Assembly (NCBI GenBank): GCA_904063045.1
Contig: CAJFCJ010000012.1
Location: 2,740,335-2,804,334 of the forward strand
DNA: 64,000 bases
Reading direction: 5' to 3'
Source of the DNA: Dimorphilus gyrociliatus
Lineage: Eukaryota > Animalia > Annelida
In this document: positions 1 to 31,984 of the stretch, piece by piece
How the letters are laid out: every line of letters starts with the position of its first letter
Numbering within the stretch: the first letter of the stretch is position 1
The notes under the pieces: model-generated
Seen by the model: the letters and a program-made list of their open reading frames with translations, nothing else
Told to the model about the DNA's origin: nothing
Databases searched by the model: none
Made by a program: the position numbers and the translations under genes

Positions 1-1398
1 TGTATTTCTGTGACATTGGCCTTTCTTAGTGATGATTTCTTTCCAATATATTTCTCCAATCTATTAACTTCTTTATTTGAAATGATCTTGTATTTTGTAT
101 CCTCTATTATTTTATTGTCAGCATAATTAGAATTTGTAAGATCAGTTCTAAGTAAGTCATATTCTTTCTGGGGTACCAATACTCTGGTACCAGGACCACC
201 ATATCCTTTGATATATCTGTCTTGGTAAGGTAAATCCATTATTGCATAGTTGGGGCAGGAAAAATATCCTCCAAGTTTTACACATTCCACATTATGGGAA
301 ACTATTTTCCATGGTGAAACATGGCCTAGAAGACTTTGGCCTTTTTCTGGATTAAATATAATGATTGAATCCAAAGTTCTACAAAATTTTTGTTTAATAG
401 AACAGTCTTCTAAATATTCCAAATTTGTGGTTATTTTATCTTGACTTGGATTCCAATAAGCCTTGCCAATTTGAAGGATTGTTGTAAATTCTTCCACCAC
501 TGTGGTTCTTGCCATTTGTAATTTGGTCCTTTGTTTTCATTATACATAAGAAGTTTGCCTTTTTCAATTAGGTTTTGTCCATTTAAGGTTTTGTGTGTGT
601 ATAGCATTGTTCTGCATTGTTTTTCACTTAAGGCAAGTGTTTGTTTTCAATTCTGTGTTTCTTTGCTCCAAAAAAGTAATGAGTGTAGAAATTGATTCTT
701 CTTTTCACTAACACTTGACAGCTTGAATTGCCAAATTGTCAGCTTTAATTTCATAGATGTTAGCTACAATTTTGATCATTTGTTTAGTTTCAAAGGTACA
801 TACTGGTTCATCTGCTAAATCAAATGATTGGTGTACTTGTTGTCCCTTGACAAAACTGTACTGATGGTAGCATTCTTACAGTTATGTTTGCTTTTGTTAT
901 GGATACATTTGCTTGGACCAAGTTTAAACAGCATATTGCTAACAGTGTATAAATTATTGATCCTCTGATAGGAAGCATTCCACCATTTGTTTGGTGTTTC
1001 CTTACTGTCACTGTGTTAACTGTTATAGGTTGTTTGTTAGCTAGTCTTAGTCTACTAGCATGATAGAATTTTCTTTTATCTGCCAATATTTGTAATTCAT
1101 ACAAACATTTTGTAGTATCTGTAGCAGTTACAAGATATGGTCCACTCCATTTGCTTGTATTTATTCTGTTCATTCCTTGACCAATGTTTTCATTTCTTAT
1201 GTGTACCCAATCACCAATTTTGTAAGTTGGAGGTTTTCTTGTAATAGCTTTATTAACTCTATCTCTATATTCCTTCTTTTTTAGAACAGATTTGCAAAGT
1301 GCTGTTGCTCTAATTCTTCAAGTTCATGTTTTCTATCAAATAAGAATTTTGTTGTTGGTTCTAATCTTGGAACTTCCATTAACAGGTCTAAAACATTT
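1..1398 (-). pseudogene. Integrase C-terminus, internal signal peptide and Env ectodomain (copy 1), broken by homopolymer indels
   Basis: KWSGPYLVT IN tail, IIYTLLAICCLNLVQA hydrophobic segment, then YFFGAK..SEKQCRTML; colinear with 28544-30330. Confidence 0.85.
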
Positions 1399-2409
1399 CT
1401 ATTCTTCAATCCCAAATAATATTTCATGTGGGGTTTTGCCAGTGCTTCCAACTGGAATTTGATTTAAACATGTCTGAATTAATGGTAACTGTCTTGTCCA
1501 ATCTGTTAATTGTTCCATAACTACATGTTTATGTAGTGCTCTACGAATTTCCAAATTCTTTCTTTCTACCATTCCATTACTTTGGCTATGGAATGCTGTT
1601 GTTTTAATTTTTCGTATTCCCATTGATGTCACCATTTCTGTAAAGATTTCCCCAAGAAAATTCCTTCCTTGATCTGTGAGAATTTCTTCTGGGATACCAA
1701 ATATTGGGAAATAGTTGAAAAACAAATGTTTAGAAATTTCCTCAGCTGTTTGAGTTTTTAGAGGGAATATGTTGGTAAATCTGGACATGTGGTCTATAAT
1801 GACAAGTATATACTTGTAAGAATCATGTCCAGTCAGAGGTCCCATTATGTCCATAGCTATTCTTTGCATTGGTAAAGTTGGGTGAGGTGTTTCAACCAAC
1901 AGATGTTTGTTGCCTGGTGCTCTTAATTGCTCACAAAATTTACAACTCTTTATGTGATCTTTAATTGTTTTCTTTAGCTTTGGGTGCCAGAAAGCTTGCT
2001 CCAAAGTGTGAATTGTTATGTCTACACCATAGTGCTCAAATAGTTGATGTTGATGAATTTGTCCAAGTAAGTTGGTTAGAGTTGATAGTGGAATTACAAG
2101 TAGTGGTTGACAGCCATTTAGATACCATACAAGGTCTTCTTTTACAAACATAGATTCAATAAAGTTTCCATATTCATTCAAAGACCCATTATCAATGTTT
2201 TCTCCTTCCAATTTGTCTACAACTTTCATTAGTGGAGTATCTAATACTTGTTCTCTATAGAAGTTTATTTCAACTGGTGTGATTTTTAGTTTCATAATCT
2301 GGGCTTGGATTTCAGTTATGTCTTCATCATAATCATTGTCTAGATTGTCATCTAAACAATCATCTAATTCTTCTAAGTCCTCTGTATCAATATAAAAGCA
2401 TTTAAGCAT
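1399..2409 (-). CDS. Integrase (HHCC + DDE core), offset from RNase H by a 1-nt frameshift in an A-run near 2448
   Basis: H..H...CKFC zinc motif, AMDIMGPL, ILTDQGRNF, GMVERKN; the IN frame is open upstream of the ATG to about 2458. Confidence 0.95.
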   Translation of the reverse strand: MLKCFYIDTEDLEELDDCLDDNLDNDYDEDITEIQAQIMKLKITPVEINFYREQVLDTPLMKVVDKLEGENIDNGSLNEYGNFIESMFVKEDLVWYLNGCQPLLVIPLSTLTNLLGQIHQHQLFEHYGVDITIHTLEQAFWHPKLKKTIKDHIKSCKFCEQLRAPGNKHLLVETPHPTLPMQRIAMDIMGPLTGHDSYKYILVIIDHMSRFTNIFPLKTQTAEEISKHLFFNYFPIFGIPEEILTDQGRNFLGEIFTEMVTSMGIRKIKTTAFHSQSNGMVERKNLEIRRALHKHVVMEQLTDWTRQLPLIQTCLNQIPVGSTGKTPHEILFGIEE

Positions 2410-2423
2410 ATCCTTTCTTTCTG

Positions 2424-5400
2424 CTAATTGGGGAACTGTATTGCCATTTTGTTTTCTTCATTTAATCTTTCCTTAAGTAAATTACGAAAATCAATTACTT
2501 CATCAGTTTCACCAATTCTTGATATCCAGTCTGCTCTATTAGTTCTTCCTGGTATGTATATTATTTCAAAATCCATATCCATAAGTGCCATCACCCATTT
2601 AACAGTACTTGTATTCAGTTTGTTTTGTACAAATGTTTGTACCAAATTTTGGTGATCAGTGTAGAGAAAAAATTTCTTATACTGTAGATAATGGGAGAAT
2701 TTTTGTACTGCCCAATATACTGCAAAAGCCTCTTTTTGATAAGCTGCATATCTTAGTTGTGTATTGATTAGGAGCTTGGAAGCAAAAGAAATTGGTTTTC
2801 TTATTTTCTTTCCATCTTCTTCCCATTCTTGTTCTAGAACTGCACCAACTGCATAATTAGAAGCATCTGTTGTTAAATAGAATGATTTAGTAAAGTCTGG
2901 CAGTTGAAGGATTGGGGGCTCTGTCATTGCATTCCTTAGTGTTTCATAAGCTTCCTCTGCTTTTTTTGTCCATTTCAGTTTTTCTGTCTTTTGGTGTACT
3001 TTTAATAATTCTCTCAAAGGTTTTGTGATTTTTGCAAAATCTTTAACAAATCTTCTATAATAACCACAAAATGCCACAAAACTCAACAGAGTATTTGCAA
3101 ACATAGGTAATTTGGCATCTTTTATTTTCTGAATCTTTTCAGGATCAGTTTCAATACCATTCTGTGTAATTCTATGACCAAGGAATTGAACTGATTCTTG
3201 TAAGAATGCACATTTGCTCAGTTTAATTCTGAAGTCTTTTTCCTTGATTCTTTCCATAAGTTTCTGTAGAGCTACAAAGTGTTCTTCCAATGTTTTGGTA
3301 AAAACTATAATATCATCCATATAATTAATGCAGAAGTTTTCCAATCCATTAATAACAAAATTTGCCATGATATAGCTGAAGTGTGAAGGTGCATTTGCCA
3401 AACCAAATGGCATGCGGTTGAATTCAAATAAACCAAATGGTGTAATAAAAGCAGTTTTCTCCTTATCTTCTTCTTTAATTGGAATATGATGAAATGCACT
3501 TGTTAAATCCAATATAGAAAAATATTTGTGGCCTCCTCCAAGCTTATCAAATAAATCTTCCTGATGTGGGATTGGATAACAATTCTTTTTTGATTGCTTG
3601 TTAAGTTTTCTGTAATCCACACACATTCTTAATGTTCCTTCTTTCTTTTTCACAAAAACAATGGGTGAAGCCCATTGGCTTTTGCTTGCTCTAATTAGAC
3701 CATTTTCCAATAATCCATTTAATTGATCCCTGCATTCCTGCTGTTTGTTGGGTGGCAATCTGTATGGTCTTTGTTTGAAAGGCTTTATATCTTCCAATAA
3801 TTCAATTGCTATTGGTGGAACATCTGGTGAACCAATGTCATTCTGATTTGTAGCAATAATATCTTCATAATTCTTTATCATTTCTTTTAATTCTTCTCTG
3901 TTCTTGTCAAGATTATTTTTGGACACATGTAAATAATTGTCAATTTCTAGTGTATTTGAATTAATATTGTGTACATTTTGATTAGACAAATGTTCAAATT
4001 CAATACTTTCCAACTGTAATTCTTCAATTTCAGGAGTTACTGGATTTTTCTTTTGTTCTTTTTCGACTTTGATAGTTATTCCATCTTCTAATTCTATGTA
4101 TTGTGGTTTCATTTCCATTTCCATAGCCAAGTCTTCAGTTTCTTCTTCAGAGGAATTTATGAGAATAACTGAGTCATTGTCAGACTTAGGTATATTTCCA
4201 GTCTCTTCATCAGATGAGTCTATAACCATTATGGAATCATTGTCAGACTCAATTGTGTTACTGGTCTCTTCTTCAGATGAGTCTATAACAATCATTGAAT
4301 CATTATCAGGCTCAGTTATGTTATCAAGCTCTTCCTCAGATGAGTCTATAACAATCATTGAACCATGATCAGAATCAGTTGAATCACTAATTTCATCTTC
4401 AGATGAGCTTGTACCATTGATTATATCCAAATCTGAGTCTGGGCTGTGATCTGATTCAATACTTGTTTCTGTATCATAATTTTCAGAAGTACTGGAACTT
4501 TCATCTGTGCCATAATTGCTATTTGAATCAAAACCATTGAATCCCTCATAAACTATGCTTGAACCATGAGTGTTGCTTGTATCATAGCCAGTATCTGGAT
4601 CAGTAACTTCCATTTCTGAGTCCACACTATCTGAAACTTCAGATGGAGTATCAAAAACTTCAGATGGAGTGTCAGAATCTTCAAAATACTGTCCCATCAT
4701 TCCAACAGTTACTTTTTTTACACTGCCTTGTTTTCCAAATTTTGTTTGGTGATTTTCGTTATATTGCAAAAACTTTCTAACTGGTTGTCCTTTTCTGATA
4801 AAGAATGGAAGAGAAACTTGTTTTGTTGCAAAATCAATAAGAGCTCCAGCATTTTCTAAGAAATCACAACCAAGTATTATAGCCATATCTAGTTTTTCCA
4901 TAATAAAGAATTCTTGTTCCATAATTCTTCCATTAAATTGAATATTCAGTTTTGTTTTTCCTTTTGTCTTTAAAGCATTTCCCTCTGCTGAAGTGATGAT
5001 TGGTAAGCCAGTAGTTTCTTTCTTGATGAATTTAGAATCCATTAACCTGATTTCTTTTTCTGTAATAAATGACAAAAGTGCTCCTGAATCACATAAAGCA
5101 ATAACCTCTCTTCCATTATGATTTTTCATTCGAAATTGGAAATCTTTTCTGCCTTTTACCAAAGAAGTACACTTAAAATGTGCGATTTTCTCTTCTTTGA
5201 GATTAAATATTGCCATTCTTCCTTTAGAAATTTCAGTTTCATTAGGTTCATCAGGTCCAACATGTATTAGTCTGTTAAAGCTGCCTTTTTCATTATTTCC
5301 TGCATTTCCATTTCTTTGTTGTTGAAATCTATTTTGAGAAAAAGGTTTAAATGTATGTTCATTTTGATTTGAGTTACTCTGATTGTTGTCAAATCTCCTT

Positions 5401-6332
5401 TTGTACTGTTTGAATTCATTTTCGCTTTCTTTTCTTGCATTATCAAAAAATATTTCTGCTCTTTTTGCCAATTTAATATACTGATTAACTGAGTTAATCT
5501 TTCCATCTTTTTCCACATGATTAACAATTTTTCCTTTAAGACCATTCCTGAATACAGTTAACAGTTGAAGTTCTCTAACTCTTTCAGTAACACAAGCCAT
5601 TTCAGTAGTATTGAATGGTAGGAATTTTTCCACAAGTTCTTTACTTCTTCTAACAAAACTTTGGACAGTTTCATCATTGAACTGTCTCAATCTATCAATT
5701 TCTTTTTTGTAAGCCATAGGATCTGGATTAAATTCTTCATCCAATGCATCCCAAATTTCATTTTCATTTGCCATGGAGGGTAAACTTTCAATAACATCTC
5801 TGGCTCTTCCAGTAGTGTATTTTCTCAGCATTCGAACTCTTTTCTCTTCTGTATCCCAAAGGTTTAATTCACAAGCTGTTTGAAAGTTCCTCTTAAAGGC
5901 CCAAGTATCTTTGCTACCAGAATAGGGTCTCAGCAAAGTAGTATTAGGTTTCTCATTAGCATCAATTAGAAGACTTGCAATTGTCTTTTCCAAAGCATTA
6001 TCTTGAATGCCATCATAACTGAATTTTGGTTGAGTAGGATCAGGATTAACCATACCTTCAGGAATTGTAGCTGCCCCAGTTATCAAATGGTACTTTAAAA
6101 AGCTATTACCATCAACTTTGGCTCCACTACTTTTAATTCTCAACATTAATTCATTAATTTTTGAAAGATACTCATCTACTTCCTTGGCTCTGGCTTTGTC
6201 ATTCTCATAAACCAAAATAACATTCATTGAAGTAGCATTGTGGGCTGTCGACTGCGCCATATTTGTACTTTGTTGTATTGTAATTGTAGGAATTTCTGGT
6301 TCGTCACAACTGTAATCGTCCTTTCCAATCAT
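2424..6332 (-). CDS. Gag-protease-RT-RNase H polyprotein (no gag/pol frameshift)
   Basis: Capsid-like LLRPYSGSKDTWAFKRNF..., protease ALCDSGA, RT LRMCVDYRKLN and YMDDIIV, RNase H TTDASNYAVGAVLEQ and TDHQNL; no CCHC knuckle seen. Confidence 0.97.
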   Translation of the reverse strand: MIGKDDYSCDEPEIPTITIQQSTNMAQSTAHNATSMNVILVYENDKARAKEVDEYLSKINELMLRIKSSGAKVDGNSFLKYHLITGAATIPEGMVNPDPTQPKFSYDGIQDNALEKTIASLLIDANEKPNTTLLRPYSGSKDTWAFKRNFQTACELNLWDTEEKRVRMLRKYTTGRARDVIESLPSMANENEIWDALDEEFNPDPMAYKKEIDRLRQFNDETVQSFVRRSKELVEKFLPFNTTEMACVTERVRELQLLTVFRNGLKGKIVNHVEKDGKINSVNQYIKLAKRAEIFFDNARKESENEFKQYKRRFDNNQSNSNQNEHTFKPFSQNRFQQQRNGNAGNNEKGSFNRLIHVGPDEPNETEISKGRMAIFNLKEEKIAHFKCTSLVKGRKDFQFRMKNHNGREVIALCDSGALLSFITEKEIRLMDSKFIKKETTGLPIITSAEGNALKTKGKTKLNIQFNGRIMEQEFFIMEKLDMAIILGCDFLENAGALIDFATKQVSLPFFIRKGQPVRKFLQYNENHQTKFGKQGSVKKVTVGMMGQYFEDSDTPSEVFDTPSEVSDSVDSEMEVTDPDTGYDTSNTHGSSIVYEGFNGFDSNSNYGTDESSSTSENYDTETSIESDHSPDSDLDIINGTSSSEDEISDSTDSDHGSMIVIDSSEEELDNITEPDNDSMIVIDSSEEETSNTIESDNDSIMVIDSSDEETGNIPKSDNDSVILINSSEEETEDLAMEMEMKPQYIELEDGITIKVEKEQKKNPVTPEIEELQLESIEFEHLSNQNVHNINSNTLEIDNYLHVSKNNLDKNREELKEMIKNYEDIIATNQNDIGSPDVPPIAIELLEDIKPFKQRPYRLPPNKQQECRDQLNGLLENGLIRASKSQWASPIVFVKKKEGTLRMCVDYRKLNKQSKKNCYPIPHQEDLFDKLGGGHKYFSILDLTSAFHHIPIKEEDKEKTAFITPFGLFEFNRMPFGLANAPSHFSYIMANFVINGLENFCINYMDDIIVFTKTLEEHFVALQKLMERIKEKDFRIKLSKCAFLQESVQFLGHRITQNGIETDPEKIQKIKDAKLPMFANTLLSFVAFCGYYRRFVKDFAKITKPLRELLKVHQKTEKLKWTKKAEEAYETLRNAMTEPPILQLPDFTKSFYLTTDASNYAVGAVLEQEWEEDGKKIRKPISFASKLLINTQLRYAAYQKEAFAVYWAVQKFSHYLQYKKFFLYTDHQNLVQTFVQNKLNTSTVKWVMALMDMDFEIIYIPGRTNRADWISRIGETDEVIDFRNLLKERLNEENKMAIQFPN
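4138..4430 (-). repeat. 63-bp (21-aa) coding tandem repeat, 4 units plus one partial, in the acidic PR-RT spacer
   Basis: MIVIDSSEEE / MIVIDSSEEE / IMVIDSSDEE / VILINSSEEE at a 21-aa period. Confidence 0.95.
6245..6259 (-). promoter_or_regulatory. Primer-binding site, tRNA-Ser type
   Basis: TGGCGCAGTCGACAG, 4 nt after the LTR CA; resembles the TGGCGCAGTCGG PBS of 17.6/ZAM-type gypsy elements. Confidence 0.8.
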
Positions 6333-7198
6333 TTACCAACTTGCCAAAGTACTGGTCCAAATAGAACCTTTAAAGTTCGTCCACAAATAGTCTAACAAAG
6401 GCAATTTCGGTAGAAATTGATTAACAAAACACCAGTATTTCGTCCAAAGAATATGTATTGAGTAAAATGAGCTTCTAGTTCTAAACAAGCTAGTTTAAAC
6501 AACTAGCTGACGGTTAGAAAACTGAACTATCAACTGTTAATTTCGTAGGGTTTATATACTCTTTTAAGGGTTGATAGTTCACAAATTTCAATGTTCACAA
6601 AAACAAAAGTAACATTTGAAGACAAAGAAAAGTTCTAAATATGGTCATGTTTTTATTGTTTTCCTCTTCTAAATAATAGTTGAATTTCGAAGGTTGGAGA
6701 GTTGCATAAGATGTAACAATTTTAGTAGGACAAGTCCAACAATCAAGAAAACATGTAGATTGTATATTTGACCGTTTTTATATTCTACCTTAATAATGAT
6801 ATTCAATTGATTGAGTTAGTAAATTTAGCATCAGCATATAAGGAGGAAGTATATCTGATTAATGCATGTTAAAAAGAACAGTATTGTGTATACAATACTG
6901 TTGAATAGTGAATATAATCTAACCTTAGAATTTAAGCATAATTGATAATTAATTGAACTAGTTTTAGTTCGAAATCATAAATTTATGGATTAATAAATTG
7001 TAATATTAATGCTAGGTTGCAAATAGCAAATATTCTTTATATAATTCAATAGGTTTTATTACTGCATAATGTGTATGCACTGCCCTATGCGAAACTAGGT
7101 CACTACTGCTTATCTTTATCAGTGCTATCTGCATAGTACAATACTGGTTCAATACTACTTCTCTATTGTAGAATATAGCTGACGAATGTATGTGTACA
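6264..7198 (-). repeat. 5' LTR of element A copy 1 (935 bp)
   Basis: Starts TGTACA and ends AGTACA on the minus strand; same length as and highly similar to 24457-25391. Confidence 0.95.
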
Positions 7199-7376
7199 CC
7201 ACAGCTCCAGATATTCAACAAGAGGAACTACAAGTCCCAACATACTCAACTTTAGAAATTGAAGAAGAAGCAATACCTCTTCAAAACTACCCAACTTTTA
7301 AGAAAGAAGATAACAGAGTCATAGTGACAAGTCCCAGACCTTTTGTGGAAGCAAGGTCTTAAAAGGGTGGGATATC
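7199..7376 (+). mobile_element. Env C-terminal tail and PPT of a related element (family B), truncated by insertion of element A
   Basis: TAPDIQQ...IVTSPRPFVEARS* (stop 7360-7362), purine tract AAAAGGGTGGGA 7361-7372; homologous to the element A 3' end at 25396-25445. Confidence 0.8.
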
Positions 7377-8074
7377 TGTGCACTTAGAAACATCAACATA
7401 ACAATATTTAGATTTAGATATTATAGAACTTTAGAAAGGCTTTTATTTCGTAGCAAGTTTAGAAAGACATTTATTTAGTAGAATTAGATTCTAGAACTTT
7501 AAAAAGACCTTCATTTCGTAGGAAACAGATTCTTTGACCATAACAGATGTTGCATTATGGAATTAACAATGGAACAAACAGTATAGAAAAAATGCATGTC
7601 AAAATTATTACATCTTATTCAAAAACAGATGCCAAAGAGGTAGGCTTGTTTTTGCAGTGCCACATGTTAGCCAGCAGTGATGCAATAGTTTTTCATGTCT
7701 TTGTTATATGTGCATTGTGAGACTGTTACATTTCAACTTCATAATCTTTTGACCAAGTGAACCCAAGCTTTGGTAAATGTATAAAAGGAAATGCATTTCC
7801 TCAGCTTGTCAGTTCAGTTCTTTAACAGTTAACTGGTTGTTTAAACTTACTTGTTTAGAACTAGAAACTCATTTACTCAATACATATTCTTTGGACAAAA
7901 TACTGGTGTTTTGTGGATTAATTTCTACCGAAATTACATTTGTTAAGACTACTTGTGGACGAATTTGAAAGGTTCTATTTGTGTGAGTACTTTGGTAAGT
8001 TGATAAATGATTGGAAAGGACGAATACTGTTCTGAAGAAGCAGAAATTCCTACAATAACAATACAACAAGTACA
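7377..8074 (+). repeat. 3' LTR of family B (698 bp)
   Basis: Begins TGTGCAC after the PPT and ends CAAGTACA; U5 is homologous to LTR A. Confidence 0.85.
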
Positions 8075-8928: not shown

Positions 8929-9480
8929 TGTACTCTGTTGTATTGTGATCATAGGAATTTCATTCTCGTCCCAACCGTATTTATCTGTACAGCTCATTTA
9001 ATAATACGCCAAAGTACTGGTCCAAATAGAACCTCATGTTCGTCCACAAGTATAAGCAAGTAAATGATATTTGTTCAAAGTTTTATATCAAACTTTCAAC
9101 AGAAAGTCAGTATTTTTCAAATAAGATATGTATTGAATATTCTGAGCTTTTATCTCTAAGCAAGCGGTTAGAAAACTAAGCTAACAACTGTTCAATTCGT
9201 AGGGTTTATATACTTTCTTAACAGTTCACAAATTCAAAGTTTGAACAATGCAAAGTAACGTTTTAACACAATTGAATGTTCTAAAAATGGTTCCACTTTT
9301 AATTGGTTTCATTCATCCTGAGTAATTAGGTCAGATAAATTTAGATGGTCAGCTTCTTTTGTAAGATGCAACAATTTTGGTAACATTCAAGTCAACCATT
9401 GAATGTGGGAAATTGGAACTGGTCCAAAAGTCAACAATAGTTGAGTTTGACCTTTTGATACTCTTTAGCTGGTGACTAAA
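8929..9480 (-). repeat. Partial LTR, family C
   Basis: Ends CAGAGTACA; U5 homologous to LTR A/B; 9110-9480 is matched in inverted orientation by 15220-15540. Confidence 0.8.
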
Positions 9481-12941: not shown

Positions 12942-13709
12942 TGTACTTTGTTGTATTGTAATTGTAGGAATTTCTGCTTCTTCAGAACAGTATTTGTCCT
13001 TTCCAATCATTTATCAATTTATGAAAGTACTGGTCCAATTAGAACCTTTCAAGTTCGTCCACAAATAGTCTTAACAAATGTAATTTCGGTAGAAATAATT
13101 CAACAAAATACCAGTATTTCGTCCAAAGAATATGTATTGAGTAAATGAGTTTCTAGTTCTAAACAAGTAAGTTTAAACAACCAGTTAACTGTTAAAGAAC
13201 TGAACTGACAAGCTGAGTAAATGCATTTCCTTTTATACATTTTCCAAAGCTTGGGTTCAAGTGGTCAAAGGATTACAAAGTTGAAATCTGACAGTCTCAT
13301 AATTCTCATGTAACAAAAATATGAAAGACTGCATATCACACATATAAAATATAATCCTAAGATTAGGGCCACATGCCAAACATGTGTCACAGCAAACAGG
13401 CCTGTCTCATCAGCATCTGGTGTTTGACCTGCATCTTTTCCATGTTCTTTGTTCCTTTGTTAATTCCCCAAGTAGCCACCATCTGTTACAGTCAAAGAGT
13501 CTATTTCTTACAAAATAGAGTTCTTTCTAAAGTACTAAAAGCTAACTCTACGAAATAAAAGTCTTTCTAAAGTTCCACCACTATAATTCCTACGAAATAT
13601 AAGTATTTCTATAGTTGCACCAGTCTAATTCCTATAAAATAGAAGTCTTTCTAATGTACCCTTATATCTAAAGTCTAAGTATGGATCTATCATTATATAT
13701 AAGTGCACA
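12942..13709 (-). repeat. Solo LTR, family B (768 bp)
   Basis: TGTGCAC...CAAAGTACA termini; similar to 7377-8074; no PBS; no clear TSD. Confidence 0.85.
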
Positions 13710-16908: not shown

Positions 16909-19900
16909 TCAAAAACAAAAGTAAAGCAACCTTTTATTTTCTTGTTCTAGTTTTCTATGCCTAAGATAGATTTTAAGTTTCATTAACAATATTAAACTTT
17001 GAGTTGTAATAACACGAAAAGGTAAGAAGAATAACATAAATAACACATATCCTTTTGTTATATTCAAATCCATAAAAAATGATAGAAAACCTAAAAGAAT
17101 TTAAAATGATAGGGAAAAGCAGAAATTAGTAAAGTTTTACCCAAAATTGAAGTGGCTACTGAAACTGCTAAATACAAGCAAGTTATAATAAAAATATGAC
17201 AATTTACAGTTTGTCTTTTTAAATTGGATGATATTTTGTTTCCATTCGAAAAGAATACAACTCTAATGCAAAAGAACATTGATATACTGTTCAAGAATAG
17301 GGGAACAGTTGAAAATAATAAATAATAGATATATATCAAGTAGTCATCTTTTCTTATATCAGTAGATGTAATGAAAATATGAAAACAAATTGGACTTTTG
17401 CTATGAGTATCCTATAGTAAGAGGCACAAAAAGAAACAGTAATGTGTATTAAGAAAATGGCAAAAAGTATTAATGTTGTACTATATCTTTTAGGAATGGA
17501 AAAACTGAAATTAACAATGGCAATAGTATTATAAATGATGTTGTGAAAAATTTATGCCCAGTAATGTAATTTCCATTTGAAAAATTTGTCCTATACAAAT
17601 ATAGTTCATAAATTATTGTTAAATGGATAATTGATGAAAAATATATCAAAAATGACATAAATGTTGAAACAACTTTGCAAGAAATGCTGTTTCTCCATAC
17701 TTCATCATACTCAATGTAGAAATCTTTCAATTTTAAATCCATCAGTGGAAAAATGAATATTACACTTACTTTTAAAAAATCATTAATTGTTGATAAAATT
17801 TGAAAATATTTTGAAATTTTAAAATTTTTTAAAATATTAATGATTGAAAATATGTTTATTATTAAGCCAATTATGCAAACAAACCAAATAAGAATTCGAT
17901 TTAAAAGACTAGCCAATAATCTTGAACACTTTAAAAATTTTGATTCTGAAGGTTGACATTCTATAGAATGATTAATTACATCCCAAATTATGCAGCATAA
18001 TTGAAAACTATCGCTTTGAACTAAATTTAAATATTTCAAATTTTTAAATATAGTTTTGTTTTTATATTTTGGTAAATTTGTGTTATTCAATATTAATTTT
18101 GTAAGTTTTGTTAAATGTTGAAGAGAGAGGAAACTAACATCTTTCAATTTGCATTTTGTCATTTGGAGTATTTTTAATTGGGTAAAAAATTTAAAATGAC
18201 TGTCATTTATTGATTGAATTGATGTTGATGACAAATCTAAGTATCTTAAATATTGACATTGAAGTTTGAATAAAAAGTCTACAGATGTTATTGGATTCTT
18301 TGATACTTTTAAATACTGCAACATTCTTAATTGGCCATTAAAAATGCTTTTTGAAACATCATCAGTCAAATCATTTTGTATGAGTGAAAGGGAAATAAGA
18401 TTTGGTAATGTTTCTACTAAATATTCTTTAGTTTTTAAATTTGAACTTTCAATTTTTAAAATTTTGACAAAATTTGAATTTTCCAGGAAATATATTGGTA
18501 TAGGACCAAATATGGCAATACTTTTAAATATTCTTGTATATTTTACATTTCTTCCAAAATATAATTTAGTATCATGAAATTCACATTGCAATTCAAAAAA
18601 TGATAATTGTGTACAATTTATTATTTGGATATATTCCGGTAAATTACAAAAGAATTCGTCAGTTCCAGTTTCACAATCATAATTTTCATCACAAACTTTC
18701 TCTAATGGGAAATATTTTGTCTGATTTTTACATTTGAAATGACCTTTTGGAAAAAATTCATGGCAATAGTCTTCGTCATCACCCAAATGACAGTGTTTAA
18801 CTTTATCACAAACTAGGTCAATAGATATGCAATAATTTTGCCTATGGCATAGATATGATCCTCTTGGGCAGGATTTTATTGAACAAGCGTATAGCTTCTG
18901 AAATAAATTTGTTTTCGGAAGGCGAAATGAATTTACTGTAAAATAACAATCAGATTCCTCATAATCCTGTTTTTTATCAATTATTTCTTCTTTGCATTTG
19001 CAATCACATTTGCCATCATTATTGTAAAATTTTGGTATGCATTGTCTTCTGCAGTCAAATTGATATTTTCTTTCGCAATCTGTAAAATATTTAAAATATT
19101 TAGTAGGCATATATTTTGAAAAGCAGATATTTTACTTTCTTGGTGAGTACGAAATATTGCGTCATGATTATTACATAGTTCGTCACTATTATCTAAACAA
19201 TTCCTTTCGTTGTTGCAAGCTTTGTCCTTGTCAATGCATTGCAGATTGTGACAATAGCTAAATATTGATTTTTTACAAAACTTTTCTAATGGAAAAATGT
19301 ATTTTTCACTTACTTTTCACATTTGTCCCTTTCTATTGTTAATATGTGTTTTTTTTACAAGTCAAGTGATCAGATGGTTCTATAATTTGAACTTACCACA
19401 AAAATTTTCATCAGAACCATCCTGACAGTCCTTTATAAAATCACACACTCGTTTATAGGATATTGCATCATTTTCAGATGATATGCAATGAAAAGTTTGA
19501 TGTTCATATATTAAACAATCTTCCTCATCTTCGCCATGATAACAATCAATCTTTCCATCACATTTGTCAGCTATATTTAGAAAAATGTTACTCTTGTTGC
19601 AAAAGAACACATTTTCTCTGATATCAAGATTAGTATTATTAACTATGATGTTCAAGTTTTCGAAATTTTCACTCATTTCCTCTTCTATTTTTTATTGAAA
19701 AAAAAGGAAAAGGATTATAATGTTCTTCTTTTGTATTAATACAGACTTTGAATTTTTTGACAAATGGTTATTGAATTTTGGGATTCTGTCTTTTTTTTAT
19801 CACTGTCAAATGATGTTTGATCACATTGCATTGATTCAATTATTAGTGATTCTGCAATTCCCAAGTTATTTCTCAGCTGAATCTAAAGCCCTAGAATATA

Positions 19901-24248: not shown

Positions 24249-24340
24249 TGTACTTTGTTGTATTGTAATTGTAGGAATTTGTTCTTCTCCTGAACAGTAT
24301 TTGTCCTTTCCAATCATTTATCAACTCACCAAAGTATTGG
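24249..24340 (-). repeat. LTR U5 fragment (family B-like)
   Basis: Ends CAAAGTACA and carries the ATG ATT GGA AAG GAC cassette. Confidence 0.8.
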
Positions 24341-24456
24341 TATATCCAATATGATTACATTGTTCTCTAATTAGATTACAATCAACAAAAACTGAGTCCA
24401 GCGCATATGAATGCTAAACCCTAATCCTAACCTAACCCTTGTCTCTGTTTAATCTT

Positions 24457-25391
24457 TGTACTTTGTTGTATTGTAATTGTAGGAATTTCTGGTTCGTCAT
24501 AATTGTAATCGTCCTTTCCAATCATTTACCAATTTTCCAAAGTACTCACACAAATAGAACCTTTAAAGTTTGTCCACCAGTAGTTCAACAAATATAATTT
24601 TGGTAGAAATTAATCAACAAAACACGAGTATTTCATCCAAAGAATATGTATTGAGTAAAATGAGTTTCTAGTTCTAAACAAGCTAGTTTAAGCAGCTAGC
24701 TGACAGTTAGAAAACTGAACTATCAACTGTTAATTTCGTAGGGTTTATATACTCTTTTAAAGGTTGATAGTTCACAAATTTCAATGTTCATAAAAACAAA
24801 AGTAACATTTGAAGACAAAGAAAAGTTCTAAATATTCACATGTTTTTATTGTTTTCCTCTTCTAAATAATAGTTGAATTTTGAAGGTTGGAGAGTTGCAT
24901 AAGATGTAACAATTTTAGTAGGACAAGTCCAACAATGAAGAAAACATGTAGATTGTATATTTGACCATTTTTATATTCTACATTAACAATGATATTCAAT
25001 TCATTGAGTTAGTAATTTTAGCATCAGCATATAAGGAGGAAGTATATCTGATTAATGCATGTTAAGTAGAACAGTATTGTATACACAATACTGTTGGATA
25101 GTGAATATAATCTAAACTTAGAATTGAAGCATAATTGATAATTAATTGAACTAGTTTTAGTTCAAAATCATAAATTTATGGATTAATAAATTGTAATATT
25201 AATGCTAGGTTGCAAATAGCAAATATTCTTTATATAATTTAATAGGTTTTATTGCTGTGTAATGTGTATGCACTGTCCTACGTGAAACTAGGTCACTACT
25301 GCTTATCTTTATCAGTGCTATCTACATAGTACAATACTGGTTCAATACTACTTCTCTATTGTAGAGTATAGCTGACGAATATATGTGTACA
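24457..25391 (-). repeat. 3' LTR of element A copy 2 (935 bp)
   Basis: Same termini and length as 6264-7198; preceded by PPT AAGGAGTGGGA. Confidence 0.95.
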
Positions 25392-25446
25392 AACATCCCA
25401 CTCCTTAAAGACCTTGCTTCCACAAAAGGTCTAGGACTTGTGACAA

Positions 25447-26091
25447 TTATGTTATCACCACTTTTTCTGAACATAGTTCTATTTCTTCTGGTTCAGCTGT
25501 TGGAGCTGAAGGTAATCTTTTTGTTTTTGTCAATAGTTTAGACAGTCTGGTAAATTGAACTCTTTTCAGTTTTTTCTTCCAAATAAAGTAAATGAAGAAT
25601 CCAATTCCAATCAAGAGTATAATTGGCAGAAGTGTGTCTATTAGTATTTTGAAAGGTTTTCTTATCCACAAAGAAAATAAATGTTGTGCTGGTGACAAGG
25701 CTGCATTAATTCCTAAATCATTTGCAAAGTTAATATGCTCTCTATGCTTAGTCAACATATCCTGTATGTATTCCAAAACTTGTTGTATCTGATAACACTT
25801 GAACACTTTTTAATTCTGTACATGTATTGAGGGTTGTTAGATCTCCTAACTATGTACTATGGGTTCCATGTTTAGATCCAAGTATTGTTGGTAGTTGAGG
25901 TGATAGTGGTGTAAGTAGGGCTATCATCTTGTTTCTCATGATAAATTCTTTGCATAAAAGTTGTGAAACTTGTTTAAAAACTGTTTGTAAATTTCTAAAA
26001 TTTTTGTCAATATTGTTTAACAGTGCAGCTGTTCTTATGGCATCTTTTATATTTATTTGGTGTGATTCTGGAATCTCTATGCTTTCTAATT
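25447..26091 (-). pseudogene. Env C-terminal part: helical region, TM anchor and cytoplasmic tail
   Basis: VSQLLCKEFIMRNKMIALL...*LGDLTTLNTC; TM LLPIILLIGIGFFIYFIW followed by KKKLKR; contains a stop and a probable deletion or frameshift. Confidence 0.8.
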
Positions 26092-28534
26092 GAATAGGGG
26101 TGAAACCGTACCTGGGTGAAACCATACCCATTGAGGGTGAAACTGTACCCATTGAGGGTGAAATCGTACCTTGGTGAAATCGTACCTGGATGAAATTTTA
26201 ACTGTCAACATGAGAAAATCAAAAAATGAAATAATTAATTTATTTGTTTTAACAAATATGTGATATACAAGTACCAGTTTTTTTCAGGTCAGCCATTTTG
26301 AATTTGTTTGTTGATTACTTGATAAGAGAATCTTGAAATAGTATTATAAATATTTGTTTTAAAGTTTTCTGCTGCTTTTGAAATAATAAATTAAACATTT
26401 CAAATCTGCACATTTTGAAATATGGCAATCAAGTGCAAAAATTGCAAACTTACAGTTTATGGAAGACAGAAGAGAAAATTCTGTTTGCCATGTAATGAGC
26501 TTCTTCATGAAAAATGTATCATCAGTAAGAATTTTGTAATTCATCTGGTCAATTGTAAATATACAATTACTTCCTTTCAGATTCCAGGCTGTCAGTTTGT
26601 CTGGATTGTGAAAAAAGACAGTGTCTTCTTCAAATGACAAGACTAGAAGATCAAGGAATGAAAGAAAGAGTTGCAATGGATGAGAATGAAGATGAAAAGA
26701 TTGATGAAGAGACAACAGATAACAGAAAAGGTGATGATCTTAGAGATTCTTATACAAATAATGATGAAATATCATCAGTCAATGCTGTTGACACTTTCCA
26801 AGAAGTTATGGATAATGATTTTCAAATAATTAGTGGTGGAAGTCAACTGGGAAAGGACATTCTGATACACAATGGATTTTCATTCACACTCAAGGCTAAA
26901 ACTTCTAAAAGTAGCATTTGGGTGTGCAGTAAAAGAACTAAAAAGCAGAGATGTCCTGCAAGAATTCGCCAACAAGGAAATTCATTTATAAAGGGAAGCA
27001 AAAAACACATTCATGGAGCCAATCAAAGTTTATCATCCAATATATCAATCAGGAAAGATTTAAGGGATATGTGCCTAACTGACACACATTCAAGTGGAAG
27101 AAGATTAGCAGAAACAGTTCTGTTGAAACACCAAGAACAAACTGACTCTGCCAAATATTGACTATTTGAAAAGAGTTGCAAATTTTACCAGACAGAAACT
27201 TAGGCCTAATGAACCAAAAGAAGTGGACTTTGATTTAAATAAGAATTTCATTCCTGATGATTTCTTAAAAGATGACATTTATGAAAACAACAATAGAATC
27301 TTGATTTTGGCCACAAATCATCAGCTTGATTTACTTGGTAAATCAAATCATTGGTTTATAGATGGAACATTCAAGATTGTGAAAGATCCATTCTATCAAC
27401 TAATATCTATTCATAGCTATGTGAAAAAGAATGGTGCAATGAAACATGTTCCCCTGGCTTTCATTTTTATATCATCAAAGCAAAAAAAATATTATAAAAA
27501 GGCATTCAAGGTATACATTTTAATAGTTCATTAACAATTTTTCTGATACCCAATTCACACTTCAGAGCATCAGAAACTTGACCTCAATATCACAGCCTGA
27601 GAAAATAACAATGGATTTTGAGATGAGTTTGTGGAAAGCTGTCTCTAAGATCTATCCAGAATCAGAAATTCATGGTTGTGTTTTCCACTTCACCCAGGCA
27701 ATCTATAGAAAAATTCAGGTACAAGATATTAATAAATATGATACTTTTCAACTTTTAATAAATTCTCTTTTTAGTCTCTTGGCTACTCTGGAAGATATAT
27801 GGAGAAAGGAGAGGACTGGAGAGACCTGAGGAAGTTGATGGCTTTACCTTTTCTGCCTGCAGATATTATTACTCCTACATTTTTTACCTTGAAGAGTCAG
27901 CTGGAAGAAAAGAGAAAATTTTCAGACTTGCTGGAATATTATGAAAATACTTGGATTTTGAATTCTACTTGGAAACCATTGAATTGGTCAATATTTGGAT
28001 TATCAATAAGGACTAATAATAGTATGGAAGGATGGCACAATAGAATGAATAATAAAGTACAATCAAAAGGATCATTCTATTTGTTGATTGATGAATTGAA
28101 AAGAGAGGCTGATTTGGTTTGTATTTACGAAAAACTTCTCTCTGAGAAGAAGATTATCAAATATCAGAGAAAAAAATATGGTGATATAGAGAAGAAAATA
28201 TTTGAAATCTGGGATGATTATAAGCTTGGAAGGATATTAGCTGATGAATTATTAATCCAGACATCTTATATTTATACTCCATAGTTGCTATTATCTATTC
28301 TTTTCTTTAGTTAACTTATAGTATAATACCTCTTCAATACATGCATTATCATATTTTTTTCATTTCTATATGAATCAACAATAACAGTTTTACTTGGTCA
28401 CAGCAAGAGATTCACCCACAATGGGTACGATTTCACCCTCAATGGGTACGGTTTCACCCTCAATGGGTATGATTTCATCCAGGTACGGTTTCACCCGGGT
28501 ACAGTTTCACCCAGGTACGGTTTCACCTGTCACC
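26092..28534 (+). mobile_element. Mutator-like (MULE) DNA transposon with tandem-repeat TIRs and a 9-bp TSD
   Basis: TSD TTTCTAATT at 26083-26091 and 28535-28543; inverted terminal arrays of GGTGAAACCGTACC(CATTGAG/TG) units. Confidence 0.95.
26422..28284 (+). pseudogene. MULE transposase (PHD-like finger + FLYWCH + DDE), 3 introns (about 26525-26580, 27511-27565, 27719-27775), one frameshift near 27150
   Basis: CKNC..CLPC..HEKC..CLDC; LIHNGFSF...WVCSKR...CPA...HIH; WFIDGTFK, MDFE..., GCVFHFTQA, RTNNSMEGWHN. Confidence 0.9.
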
Positions 28535-28543
28535 TTTCTAATT

Positions 28544-31124
28544 ATTTCCTCTTCCATTTGTGATTTATTGGTTTTCTTTGTAAAAGTGTATATTTTCCAT
28601 TTTCTGTATAAATTTGAAATTGTGTATCTTTTGGGCTTTGATACCAAATGTTCATGTTTGGAAGTGGGTTGAAAGTAACTGGTTTTTTGTCCAATTCAAA
28701 ATCTTGTGATCTGACTAGTCTGGCAGGTTTTAGCTTTGCTGTTTTCAGCATTTTTAGTATGTATTTGTTGTTAATATCTGGAGAAATAATTTCTTTGACA
28801 AACCAAGTCCTCACTAATGGTGTTGCATGATTTTTTATCAGCATATGGTAAGTTTTGTCGTCATCTCTATACCAATCATTATATGTTAAAATATCCTGTA
28901 TTTCTGTGACATTGGCCTTTCTTAGTGATGATTTCTTTCCAATATATTTCTCCAATCTATTAACTTCTTTATTTGAAATGATCTTGTATTTTGTATCCTC
29001 TATTATTTTATTGTCAGCATAATTGGAATTTGTAAGATCAGTTCTAAGTAAGTCATATTCTTTCTGAGGTACCAATACTCTGGTACCAGGACCACCATAT
29101 CCTTTGATATACCTGTCTTGGTAAGGTAAATCCATTATTGCATAGTTGGGGCAGGAAAAATATCCTCCAAGTTTTACACATTCCACATTATGGGAAATTA
29201 TTTTCCATGGTGAAACATGGCCTAACAGACTTTGACCTTTTTGTGGATTAAATATAATAATTGAATCCAAAGTTCTACAAAATTTTTGTTTAATAGAACA
29301 GTCTTCTAAATATTCCAAATTTGTGGTTATTTTATCTTGGCTTGGATTCCAATAAGCCTTGCCAATTTGAAGGATTGTTGTAAATTCTTCCACCACTGTG
29401 GTTCTTGGCCATTTGTAATTTGGTCCTTTGTTTTCATTATACATAAGAATTTTGCCTTTTTCAATTAGGTTTTGTCCATTTAAGGTTTTGTGTGTGTATA
29501 GCATTGTTCTGCATTGTTTTTCACTTAAGGCAAGTGTTTGTTTTTCAATTCTGTTTCTTTGCTCCAAAAAAGTAATGAGTGTAGAAATTGATTCTTCTTT
29601 TCACTAAACACTTGATAGCTTGAATTGCTAAATTGTCAGCTTTAATTTCATAGATGTTATTCACAATTTTGGTCATTTGTTTAGTTTCAAAGGTACATAC
29701 TGGTTCATCAGCTAAATCAAATGATTGGTGTACTTGTTGTCCTTGACAAAACTGTACTGATGGTAGCATTCTTACAGTTATATTTGCTTTTGTTATGGAT
29801 ACATTTGTTTGGACCAAGTTTAAACAGCATATTGCTAACAGTGTATAAATTATTGATCTTCTGATAGGAAGTATTCCACCATTTGTTTGTTGGTTCCTTA
29901 CTGTCACTGTGTTAACTGTTATAGGTTGTTTGTTAGCTAGTCTTAGTCTACTAGCATGATAGAATTTTCTTTTATCTTCCAATATTTGTAATTCATACAA
30001 ACATTTTATAGTATCAGTAGCAGTTACAAGGTATGGTCCACTCCATTTGCTTGTATTTATTCTGTTCATTCCTTGACCAATGTTTTCATTTCTTATGTGT
30101 ACCCAATCACCAATTTTGTAAGTTGGATGTTTTCTTGTAATAGCTTTATTAACTCTATCTCTATATTTCTTCTTTTTTAGAACAGATTTGCAAAGTGCTG
30201 TTGCTCTAATTTCTTCAAGGTCATGTTTTCTATCAAATAAGAATTTTGTTGTTGGTTCTAATCTTGGAACTTCTATTAATAGATCTAAGACATTTCTATT
30301 CTTCAATCCAAATAATATTTCATGTGGGTTTTGCCAGTGCTTCCAACTGGAATTTGATTTAAACATGTCTGAATTATTGGCAATTGCCTTGTCCAATCTG
30401 TCAATTGTTCCATAACTACATGTTTATGTAGTGCTTTGCAAATTTCCAAATTCTTTCTTTCTACCATTCCATTACTTTGGCTATGGAATGCTGTTGTTTT
30501 CATTTTTTGTATTCCCATTGATGTTACCATTTCTGTAAAGATTTCTCCAAGAAAATTCCTTCCTTGATCTGTGAGAATTTCTTCTGGGATACCAAATATT
30601 GGGAAATAGTTGAAAAACAAATGTTTAGAAATTTCCTCAGCTGCTTGAGTTTTTAGAGGGAATAAGTTGGTAAATCTGGACATGTGGTCTATAATGACAA
30701 GTATATACTTGTAAGAATCATGTCCAGTCAAAGGTCCCATTATGTCCATAGCAATTCTTTGCATTTGTAAAGTTGGGTGAGGTGTTTCAACCAACAAGTG
30801 TTTGTTGCCTGGTGCTCTTAATTGCTCACAAAATTCACAACTCTTTATATGATCTTTAATTGTTTTCTTTAGCTTGGGATGCCAGAAAGCTTGCTCCAAA
30901 GTGTGAATTGTTATGTCTACACCATAGTGCTCAAATAGTTGATGTTGATGAATTTGCCCAAGTAAGTTGGTTAGAGTTTGTAGTGGGATTACAAGTAGTG
31001 GTTGACAGCCATTTAGATACCATACAAGGTCTTCTTTTACAAACATAGATTCAATAAAGTTTTTATATTCATTCAATGACCCATTATCAATGTTTTCTCC
31101 TTCCAATTTGTCTACAACTTTCAT
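28544..31124 (-). pseudogene. Integrase-Env region of copy 2 (three ORF-track pieces joined by small indels)
   Basis: ORFs 30303-31124, 29545-30396 and 28542-29567 overlap in different frames; the indels differ from those in copy 1. Confidence 0.9.
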
Positions 31125-31164
31125 TAGTGGGGTATGCTCTTTTAGAATCCATTAATTTGCCCCA

Positions 31165-31240
31165 CAATGAAAAAAAGAAAGAGATAATAAAATGGTTCAT
31201 ACCACATTATGGTGTGGCAAACCCAAATAAAAAGGGCTAC
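31165..31240 (+). mobile_element. BEL/Pao RT-proximal micro-fragment
   Basis: EIIKWFIPHYGVANPNKKG, nearly identical to 8360-8420. Confidence 0.6.
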
Positions 31241-31484
31241 GCAATTCCGCTTCACATTTGAATTGTGGATCATCATAAACGAGTTTTTTGGTAAGGTGCC
31301 ACATGTTCTCAATTGGACTGAGGTCAGGGCTCTTTTCTGGCCAATCAAGAGGATGGATGTCATTCATTTGAAAGGCTCTTTTGGTTGTCCTAGCAGTATG
31401 GCACCAAGCAATATCTTGCTGGAAGATGTACTGCCTCTCCATTTTAGCTGATATATCTTCTATTACAAAAAGAACATTTTCCAC
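31240..31484 (-). mobile_element. Tc1 (DD34E) transposase fragment
   Basis: FQQDIAWCHTA...LDWPEKSPDLSPIENMW. Confidence 0.9.
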
Positions 31485-31984
31485 AACACAAAAATAAGAT
31501 AAAAAATATTTTTAGCTGTATTTAGATGGAAATTTATAAATGTATATAATATATATTTTTAAAATATAAAGCAATAAAAGTGCATGGATTATTTGAAAGT
31601 TTATTAAAATTTCTCTGATGACGTATGTAATAAAATATGACCGGATGTATTTCGTTCCTCCTCTAAAGAAAATTCAATTACATAAACGTGTCAATGTTTA
31701 TTAAGAAAAATTTAATTAATACAGTATAGTGATATTGATAATAGAATCAATGTTTTTCTCGTCGTTTTTCAAAGGATTAATTCATTTTTTTAAAAGATTA
31801 CATCAATTAGATAACCTGGTTGCTGTAAATACAAAATTTAGGATAGAAAGTAGGCAAGAGCTTTACTTTTCATCAACAATTTAACAGTTTTGAGATTTTT
31901 AATTCGTAAATTATCGTTATTGATAATGCTTTCTAAACAAATCAATATTGTCATTTATCTTCATATTCTAACAGAAAGCTGATA

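What the first reader, a model, noticed from the sequence alone, without database searches (positions are those of the whole stretch)
1..6332. Gypsy retroelement with a single Gag-Pol-Env reading frame: class III-like fusogen joined to integrase through an internal signal peptide
Seen: the indels in copy 1 and copy 2 fall at different positions, so their consensus reads without a stop from the IN core (GKTPHEILFGLKNRN) through the IN tail (KWSGPYLVT), a signal-peptide-like segment (IIYTLLAICCLNLVQA/NVS) and a Cys-spaced ectodomain. The TM anchor and tail lie at 25447-25806. Gag-PR-RT-RH is one ORF. Established: gypsy/errantivirus env is normally a separate ORF expressed from spliced RNA, while single-ORF env occurs in some BEL/Pao elements. 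Inference from manual comparison: AIKC...THYFFGAKKHR...LSEKQCRTML resembles the rhabdovirus G fusion-loop-1 region (C...FRWYG...SVEQC), and LLCKE...LSP...LGDLTTLNTC resembles herpes gB (NP...RMLGDVMAVSTC). This suggests a class III fusogen released by signal peptidase, leaving IN with a transient membrane anchor as in flavivirus capsid processing.
Basis: partly seen in the sequence, partly recalled or inferred. Interest (0 to 1): 0.88.

Follow-up and report, generated by a model that had tools for sequence, protein, structure and literature searches.

The report
Worm retrotransposon with fused envelope gene
This is a young virus-like jumping gene, likely of the already published Dingle family from a tiny marine worm, whose capsid, enzymes and predicted herpes-like fusion protein very likely share one reading frame, so the envelope would have to be cut free from integrase by the host's signal peptidase.

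Summary
Integrase tail, signal-like segment and Env start are stop-free in each copy as it stands. Copy 1 has seven one-base frame breaks. One contig from a public run spans RNase H to mid-Env with seven gaps, two substitutions and a whole-codon net difference, so the breaks look like assembly errors and the family likely has one ORF of about 2,550 codons.

Env is class III by way of homologues. A relative's model matches herpes gB, VSV G, Thogoto GP and GP64. The window's own model failed.

The element is not new. Pol is 82-93% identical to a Dimorphilus gyrociliatus protein, and that genome's Dingle elements with gB-like Env are published (PMC7854359; PMC13524379). I did not find the single frame stated in text for a gypsy element with Env after integrase. 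It is known in BEL/Pao (Atlas virus) and recurs in an unrelated 2,444-aa protein (P0127).

Signal-peptidase release is inferred. A Met directly before the signal leaves a subgenomic env RNA open. Verdict: new variant of a known kind, interest 0.42.

The parts
6264..7203 (-). Copy 1 5' LTR, 940 bp, TG...CA
   Evidence: 94.1% to 24457-25391; ends read
6248..6259 (-). Primer-binding-site-like 12-mer, 4 bases after the LTR; overlaps the likely start Met at 6260
   Evidence: same 12-mer as listed for Dgyr_errantivirus_1
5120..6260 (-). Gag region (by position; no CCHC knuckle, no Gly2)
   Evidence: weak phmmer hits to gypsy Gag regions (P0090 E 2e-4, P0065 E 0.06); no Pfam or PDB capsid hit
4836..5117 (-). 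Aspartic protease (DSG)
   Evidence: Pfam RVP_2 and RVP above cut-off or near it
4141..4407 (-). 63-bp tandem repeat (4.2 copies) in an acidic Ser/Asp spacer between PR and RT
2577..3653 (-). RT (YMDD) and RNase H
   Evidence: Pfam RVT_1 E 8e-35, RT_RNaseH E 4e-30; best solved match Ty3 RT, E 5e-76 and 7e-76
1042..2091 (-). Integrase: H2C2, core and C-terminal tail; copy-1 frame breaks at ~1410 and ~1313; break at ~2451 lies upstream in the RH-IN bridge
979..1041 (-). 21-codon stop-free linker between the last IN motif and the signal-peptide Met; candidate protease cut region (inferred)
910..978 (-). Signal-peptide-like segment, Met at 978, hydrophobic core, small residues at -3/-1 before the NVS sequon
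   Evidence: hydropathy 2.23; Met position; no signal-peptide predictor was available
1..909 (-). Copy 1 Env ectodomain, N-terminal part (runs off the window); breaks at ~844, 709, 643, 510
   Evidence: X read-through scores E 3e-73 against a profile of six outside homologues
29545..30423 (-). Copy 2 natural ORF joining end of IN core, IN tail, signal segment (29806-29874) and Env up to the first fusion-loop region
30329..31135 (-). Copy 2 integrase (copy is 5'-truncated at 31135)
28545..29547 (-). Copy 2 Env middle part, including a ~130-aa stretch shared only with P0122
26093..28544 (+). MULE DNA transposon inserted in copy 2 env (FLYWCH and MULE domains, repeated termini, target duplication)
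   Evidence: empty site in 4 of 4 runs
25797..26092 (-). Copy 2 Env central-helix region (gB-like motif); one in-frame stop at ~25850; deletion of about 390 bases at 25796
   Evidence: 59% to P0122
25447..25795 (-). Copy 2 Env membrane-proximal region, TM helix (25576-25656) and basic cytoplasmic tail
   Evidence: hydropathy 2.68; aligns to P0122 C-terminus
24457..25406 (-). Copy 2 polypurine tract (25396-25406) and 3' LTR (24457-25395)

Best explanation
This is an env-carrying Ty3/gypsy element, likely of the Dingle family, whose active form very likely encodes Gag, protease, RT-RNase H, integrase and a predicted class III fusion glycoprotein in one frame, with Env likely released by host signal peptidase at an internal signal. 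Shown: domain order, LTR/PBS/PPT, and no stop between IN and the signal in either copy. Strongly inferred: copy 1's seven breaks are assembly errors and the ORF is about 2,550 codons (about 1,760 Gag-Pol, a 23-residue signal, about 770 Env). Predicted through homologues: a gB/G-type fold. Inferred and untested: ribosomes on genomic RNA read through IN into the signal. The signal would then bring the chain to the ER, signal peptidase would cut before NVS, and Env would become a type I glycoprotein. Gag-Pol would stay on the cytosolic face, tethered by the signal remnant, until the element's protease cuts in the 21-codon linker and frees IN.
For: Natural stop-free junction in both copies. X3 contig over 1-3081 has 7 gaps for 7 breaks, 2 substitutions and a net difference of one codon; X1 contig over 3232-6271 has no gap. 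All 8 copy-1 segments between breaks are stop-free. Only one strong hydrophobic segment lies upstream of the TM helix, and it sits right after IN. Homologue P0121 (47%) also has a signal-like stretch at the aligned place. The P0123 model matches only class III fusogens in all 32 PDB rows shown (best E 6.5e-7) and in the top 10 VIA rows (Z 8.8-5.3). P0127, a natural 2,444-aa ORF with Gag-PR-RT-RH-IN-chromo-PR-signal-Env, carries a homologous Env (hhalign 97.8%, E 1e-12) and no Met adjoining its signal. Atlas virus encodes a 2,828-residue Gag-Pol-Env without stops (PMC9094657).
Against: An in-frame Met directly before the signal in copy 1 would give a textbook stand-alone signal peptide, and two acceptor-like AGs lie 74 and 141 bases upstream. 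The linker is short, so a stop-free in-frame join has about a 6% chance by composition alone. P0123 is called as starting at its own Met and signal on an 8.8-kb contig, which suggests a separate env ORF in that relative. One ORF gives 1:1:1 Gag:Pol:Env, far from usual particle ratios (recalled knowledge). The window's own Env model failed (pLDDT 41.7), and window pieces hit no fusogen family or solved structure directly. No contig spans the whole ORF, and the stop at ~25850 could not be checked against the runs.
Confidence: 0.55

Rival explanations
1. The frame is single, but working Env comes mainly from a subgenomic RNA (spliced, or from an internal promoter in pol) that starts at the Met before the signal. 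The Env part of the long polyprotein is a by-product clipped off by protease.
For: Met at 978 in copy 1, with the runs' contigs matching copy 1 there. Oikopleura Tor gypsy elements make env RNA by splicing or from an internal promoter in pol (PMC4402516). C. elegans Cer1 (gypsy) has its 3' ORF in frame with a 2,272-aa polyprotein, yet the product comes from a spliced mRNA (PMC10309623). This route would also fix the stoichiometry.
Against: Copy 2 has Ile at that Met, though it is a decayed copy. P0127 has the same layout with no Met next to its signal. With no stop after IN, the signal is made on every Pol chain regardless.
Confidence: 0.3
2. The family is open through IN and the signal but its Env is defective further down, so the fusion is a relic and the element moves as an ordinary intracellular retrotransposon.
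For: The only C-terminal Env in the window (copy 2) has stops, a deletion and a MULE. The stop at ~25850 is unchecked in the runs. IN-tail/signal/Env codons differ 9 non-synonymous to 4 synonymous between copies.
Against: The runs' contigs bridge the MULE and the deletion with lengths that keep the frame. Mid-Env differs 8 synonymous to 2 non-synonymous. P0122 is open across the aligned stop and through the TM. The genome paper modelled a Dingle-1 envelope.
Confidence: 0.1
3. The single frame is an illusion of merging decayed copies.
For: No copy in the window is intact. Logan contigs collapse many copies, their library type is not on record, and they may come from the same strain as the window.
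Against: The decisive junction is open in each copy separately. Copy 1 differs from the X3 contig by 7 one-base gaps but only 2 substitutions in 3 kb, an error-like pattern. A collapsed majority sequence still reflects the recently active form.
Confidence: 0.05

Closest known systems
Dingle (Dinophilidae Gypsy-like elements), Dimorphilus gyrociliatus; PMC7854359
   Same: Ty3/gypsy LTR element with a gB-like protein downstream of integrase (HHpred P>99 in that paper). Window Pol is 82-93% identical over its main blocks to DgyrCDS14407, against at most 45% for other RT hits.
   Different: The text I saw does not say Env is in frame with Pol or discuss its release. Extended Data Fig. 3d shows a six-frame map that I could not view and that may already show the single ORF. 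Identity to Dingle-1 itself is untested.
Annelida_Polychaeta_Dgyr_errantivirus_1 and the HSV/gB-type errantiviruses; PMC13524379
   Same: Same host genome, ENV_HSV type, identical 12-base PBS just after the LTR; ectodomain between signal and TM.
   Different: Listed LTRs are about 630 bp and it carries a chromodomain; this element has 940-bp LTRs and no chromodomain hit, so it is likely a sister family. The paper treats GAG, POL and ENV as ORFs; 'fused', 'single ORF', 'polyprotein', 'in-frame', 'frameshift' and 'splic' have 0 hits in its main text.
Atlas virus and related nematode belpaoviruses; PMC9094657
   Same: One stop-free Gag-Pol-Env polyprotein with a captured viral fusogen at the C-terminus.
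   Different: BEL/Pao RT (YVDN) and a class II phlebovirus-like Gn/Gc; here a gypsy RT (YMDD) and a class III Env.
P0127 (unnamed 2,444-aa protein from a 16-kb metagenome contig)
   Same: One ORF, Gag-PR-RT-RH-IN-signal-Env, with a homologous Env.
   Different: Has a chromodomain and a second protease domain before the signal; RT only about 40% identical; host unknown.
Oikopleura Tor elements; PMC4402516
   Same: Gypsy-related elements in a compact marine genome; Tor3b/4b Env has an F-x-G motif, conserved cysteines and a C-terminal TM.
   Different: Env is a third ORF with its own RNA, spliced or from an internal promoter.
Drosophila errantiviruses (gypsy, ZAM, Idefix)
   Same: Gag-pol-env order between LTRs.
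   Different: F-type Env of baculovirus origin; separate spliced ORF3 (recalled).

Membership tests
Ty3/gypsy (Metaviridae) | Pol order PR-RT-RH-IN | tested here: met
Ty3/gypsy (Metaviridae) | RT-RH closest to Ty3-type enzymes | tested here: met
   best solved match Ty3 at E 5e-76 versus 1e-38 for the next kind; named hits are gypsy/Ty3-type
Ty3/gypsy (Metaviridae) | LTRs with TG...CA, PBS and PPT | tested here: met
   the two LTRs belong to different insertions
Ty3/gypsy (Metaviridae) | Capsid-fold Gag | tested here: inconclusive
   weak hits only; no Pfam or PDB hit
Ty3/gypsy (Metaviridae) | Supported placement in an RT tree | tested here: inconclusive
   quick tree of 50 of 116 usable rows; window on a long branch with no supported group; no reference errantiviruses on hand
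Dingle | Gypsy element of D. gyrociliatus | tested here: met
   82-93% to DgyrCDS14407; host inferred from this match
Dingle | gB-like protein downstream of IN | tested here: met
   through homologues
Dingle | Sequence identity with Dingle-1 | not testable with these tools
   no Dingle sequence or host genome held
Dgyr_errantivirus_1 | PBS 12-mer and ENV_HSV type | tested here: met
Dgyr_errantivirus_1 | LTR about 630 bp | tested here: not met
   940 bp here; the paper's LTR calls need >99% identity and could be partial
Dgyr_errantivirus_1 | Chromodomain after IN | tested here: not met
   no Chromo hit at E 0.1 in either copy, and only 21 codons separate IN from the signal
HSV/gB-type errantivirus (broad sense, PMC13524379) | Gypsy POL plus gB-type ENV with signal and TM | tested here: met
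HSV/gB-type errantivirus (broad sense, PMC13524379) | Cysteine-bridge configuration | not tested
   figure not viewable; window Env incomplete
Class III fusion proteins | Fusion-domain/PH-like fold plus long central helix | tested here: met
   on homologue P0123, 24-29% identical to window Env pieces; mean pLDDT 57, confident part about residues 70-270
Class III fusion proteins | Same fold in the window's own protein | tested here: inconclusive
   model pLDDT 41.7, best Z 3.6
Class III fusion proteins | Trimer and membrane fusion activity | not testable with these tools
   no assay possible; no complex job sent
BEL/Pao (Atlas-like) | Belpaovirus RT and phlebovirus-like class II Env | tested here: not met
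   YMDD motif and Ty3-like RT; class III fold hits
Insect Errantivirus (Drosophila type) | F-type Env in a separate ORF | tested here: not met

The most novel reading that the evidence does not exclude
A widespread but unremarked class of gypsy elements makes its whole particle from one polyprotein. The Env signal peptide doubles as a C-terminal membrane tether for Gag-Pol, replacing matrix and myristoylation, and couples capsid assembly to Env-bearing ER membrane until the element's protease releases integrase. This would be flavivirus-style processing in a retroelement. P0127's second protease, sitting just before the signal, would be a dedicated release enzyme.
Probability: 0.2. Interest if true: 0.72.

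Novelty: new variant of a known kind. Interest (0 to 1): 0.42.

Why it matters
Surveys now list hundreds of gypsy elements with gB-type Env, but how that Env is made and meets the capsid is largely unstudied outside flies and Oikopleura. A young, multicopy single-frame family in a lab-cultured annelid makes this testable with RNA mapping and ribosome profiling alone. If the polyprotein route holds, gypsy elements share the Atlas-type strategy, and annotations that assume three ORFs miss a layer of their biology. The element and its envelope type are already in print.

Tried and rejected
No host genome was held, so other copies could not be counted. No RNA holder was listed, which is no evidence on expression. 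None of the 15 of 24 joints shown looks like a spliced env RNA, but contigs cannot show absence.

Direct searches with window Env gave nothing in Pfam, solved structures, longer proteins (0 of 1,281 candidates) or viral contigs. Metagenome scans gave 0 confirmed of 189 and 0 of 181 pattern matches. A profile search for more Env relatives returned only P0125 itself, 1 of 4,723 candidates. The protein Atlas gave no answer.

Single-sequence comparison with P0112/P0065/P0100 Env was not significant. The profile match to P0065's chuvirus-type Env was weak (5.4%). The window's own fold failed. The RT tree did not place the element. Four in-frame slippery heptamers were set aside, since in one ORF a shift would end translation and poly-A runs are common here.

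Filing it as Dgyr_errantivirus_1 was rejected on LTR length and chromodomain. Filing it as BEL/Pao or a Drosophila-type errantivirus was rejected on RT and Env type.
Full report
Anatomy. The window holds two minus-strand copies of one LTR element. Copy 1 runs from a 940-bp 5' LTR (7203-6264, TG...CA) through a PBS-like 12-mer (6259-6248) into a long coding region that leaves the window at base 1. Copy 2 begins inside integrase at 31135 and ends with a polypurine tract and a 3' LTR (25395-24457) that is 94% identical to copy 1's. Pfam places protease, RT, RNase H, integrase zinc finger and core in gypsy order. The RT-RH's best solved match is Ty3.

The junction is real without any merging. Copy 2's ORF 29545-30423 reads from the end of the IN core through the IN tail, a hydrophobic segment and about 90 residues of Env. 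Copy 1's ORF 820-1317 reads IN tail, signal and Env start. Across this stretch the coding frame has no stop, while the other frames have 13-14 in both copies. The 8 indels between the copies are at 8 different places.

The breaks in copy 1 look like assembly errors. Copy 1 has seven frame breaks (~2451, 1410, 1313, 844, 709, 643, 510), and all eight segments between them are stop-free. I laid contigs of 4 of the 7 listed runs. Five breaks appear as one-base differences in the 12 of 28 indel rows shown: four of them in 4 of 4 runs, one in 3 of 4. One X3 contig covers 1-3081 with seven gaps, two substitutions and a net difference of one codon, so RNase H and mid-Env are in one frame in it. An X1 contig covers 3232-6271 with four substitutions and no gap, and X2 and X5 pieces bridge the stretch between. 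Seven single-base gaps against two substitutions is the pattern of long-read error (inference). The published assembly of the likely host is PacBio-based; I did not determine whether the window comes from it. Limits: contigs collapse copies, library types are not on record, the runs cover two studies and may share the window's strain, and no piece spans the whole element.

Copy 2 is decayed. All 4 runs skip the 2,452-bp MULE at 26093-28544 and differ at copy 2's two breaks. Three of 4 hold about 390 more bases at 25796, and 3 of 4 differ by 13 bases in the tail. These lengths keep the frame. An in-frame stop at ~25850 could not be checked, because only 40 of 202 substitution rows were shown; homologue P0122 is open across it. 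Adding the spans gives roughly 2,550 codons, with the signal near residue 1,765.

Env is class III, shown through relatives. Window pieces hit nothing directly. A search of 1.84 billion representatives gave 5 hits at 23-47% identity. A profile of six outside homologues scores the X read-throughs at E 3e-119 and 3e-73; the best of 200 shuffles scores E 0.22. P0123 and P0126 hit the rhabdovirus G fusion-domain family over the YFFG.K region, and P0122 and P0127 hit the herpes gB family weakly over the LLC.E...GDL region. The P0123 model (mean pLDDT 57; 213 of 469 residues under 50) matches only class III proteins in the 32 PDB rows shown: gB, Bourbon/Thogoto/Dhori GP, VSV and Mokola G, GP64. In BFVD its top hits are glycoproteins of negative-strand RNA viruses. 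In VIA the top ten rows are all class III, from 2gum Z 8.8 (191 aligned, rmsd 39.5) to 4d6w Z 7.5 (189 aligned, rmsd 7.0) and down to 5.3. TM-scores are low (0.2-0.3) because domains are mis-docked, so this shows fold class, not a nearest viral donor. The window's own mid-Env model failed.

Identity and prior art. The closest RT hit by far is DgyrCDS14407 of Dimorphilus gyrociliatus, 82-93% identical over its main blocks. That genome's paper names its most abundant transposon Dingle and reports a gB-like Env (PMC7854359: passages, section 13 and supplement searches seen; figures not viewable). A survey of 1,512 elements finds gB-type Env widespread in gypsy elements (PMC13524379: abstract, section 5 part 1, section 6 part 2, section 14, passages, and parts or searches of supplements seen). 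It lists Dgyr_errantivirus_1 with the same PBS but 630-bp LTRs and a chromodomain. This element is therefore best filed as a Dingle-type, gB-type element, probably a sister of the listed one.

Is the single frame in print? For BEL/Pao, yes: Atlas virus (PMC9094657, passages). For a gypsy element with Env after IN I found no statement. Searches returned 0 papers, one search returned two HERV papers, and searches returned nothing on point beyond the papers above (listings only; PMC12440569 passages). Term look-ups in the survey's main text were blank. The library misses subscription papers, and the Dingle six-frame figure may already show it. The layout recurs: P0127 is a natural 2,444-aa ORF with a homologous Env after IN, and P0065 and P0100 carry a chuvirus-type Env in frame upstream of Pol. 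Earlier scan notes report the latter layout in flatworms (unchecked).

Mechanism. With no stop after IN, every Pol chain carries the signal and Env; this follows from the sequence. The simplest route is ER targeting by the internal signal, signal-peptidase cleavage before NVS, and protease release of IN in the 21-codon linker. Late internal signals in viral polyproteins and the flavivirus capsid-anchor parallel are recalled knowledge, not tested here. The main rival is a subgenomic env RNA using the Met at 978, with precedents in Tor (PMC4402516, passages and section 15) and Cer1 (PMC10309623, passages). The two routes can coexist. I put 0.55 on the polyprotein route as the working source of Env, 0.3 on the subgenomic route, 0.1 on a defective Env and 0.05 on artefact.

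Verdict. A real feature in a known family. The single frame is a modest, testable addition. Interest 0.42.

Noticed in passing
window 7201-8074 (+): An env-tail-like stretch, a purine tract and a sister LTR (87% to copy 1's LTR over only the last 265 bp) lie head-to-head with copy 1, so copy 1 looks nested in a sister element. More sister-LTR pieces are at 12942-13574, 8929-9382 and 24249-24341.
   Followed up: partly
window 25509-25568, 26524-26581, 27508-27564: Run X5's contigs skip 55-58 bases with GT..AG ends on the + strand: twice in the MULE's sense direction and once antisense to the env tail. This would fit RNA-derived contigs and an antisense spliced transcript, but the run's kind is not on record.
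   Followed up: no
window 28545-28950 (-): A ~130-residue stretch of Env before the central helix is shared with P0122 but absent from P0123-P0126; no fold was found for it.
   Followed up: partly
P0127 residues 1533-1720: A chromodomain and a second aspartic-protease domain sit between integrase and the Env signal in this single-ORF relative.
   Followed up: no
window 4141-4700 (-): A long acidic Ser/Asp spacer with 63-bp and 21-bp tandem repeats separates protease and RT, kept in frame.
   Followed up: no
window 17470-19131, 33689-35971, 51772-53474, 62808-63755 (-): A cluster of host LDLa-LRR-7TM receptor genes surrounds the elements.
   Followed up: no
window 42701-45778 (+): A run of ORFs with an F5/8 type C (galactose-binding) domain.
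   Followed up: no
window 31197-31511 (-): A short ORF that reads like a Tc1/mariner transposase end (label recalled, not tested) abuts the truncation point of copy 2.
   Followed up: no
P0022 (DgyrCDS14407): This annotated host protein appears to be a gene-model chimera that splices pieces of this element's pol and env onto an unrelated N-terminus.
   Followed up: partly
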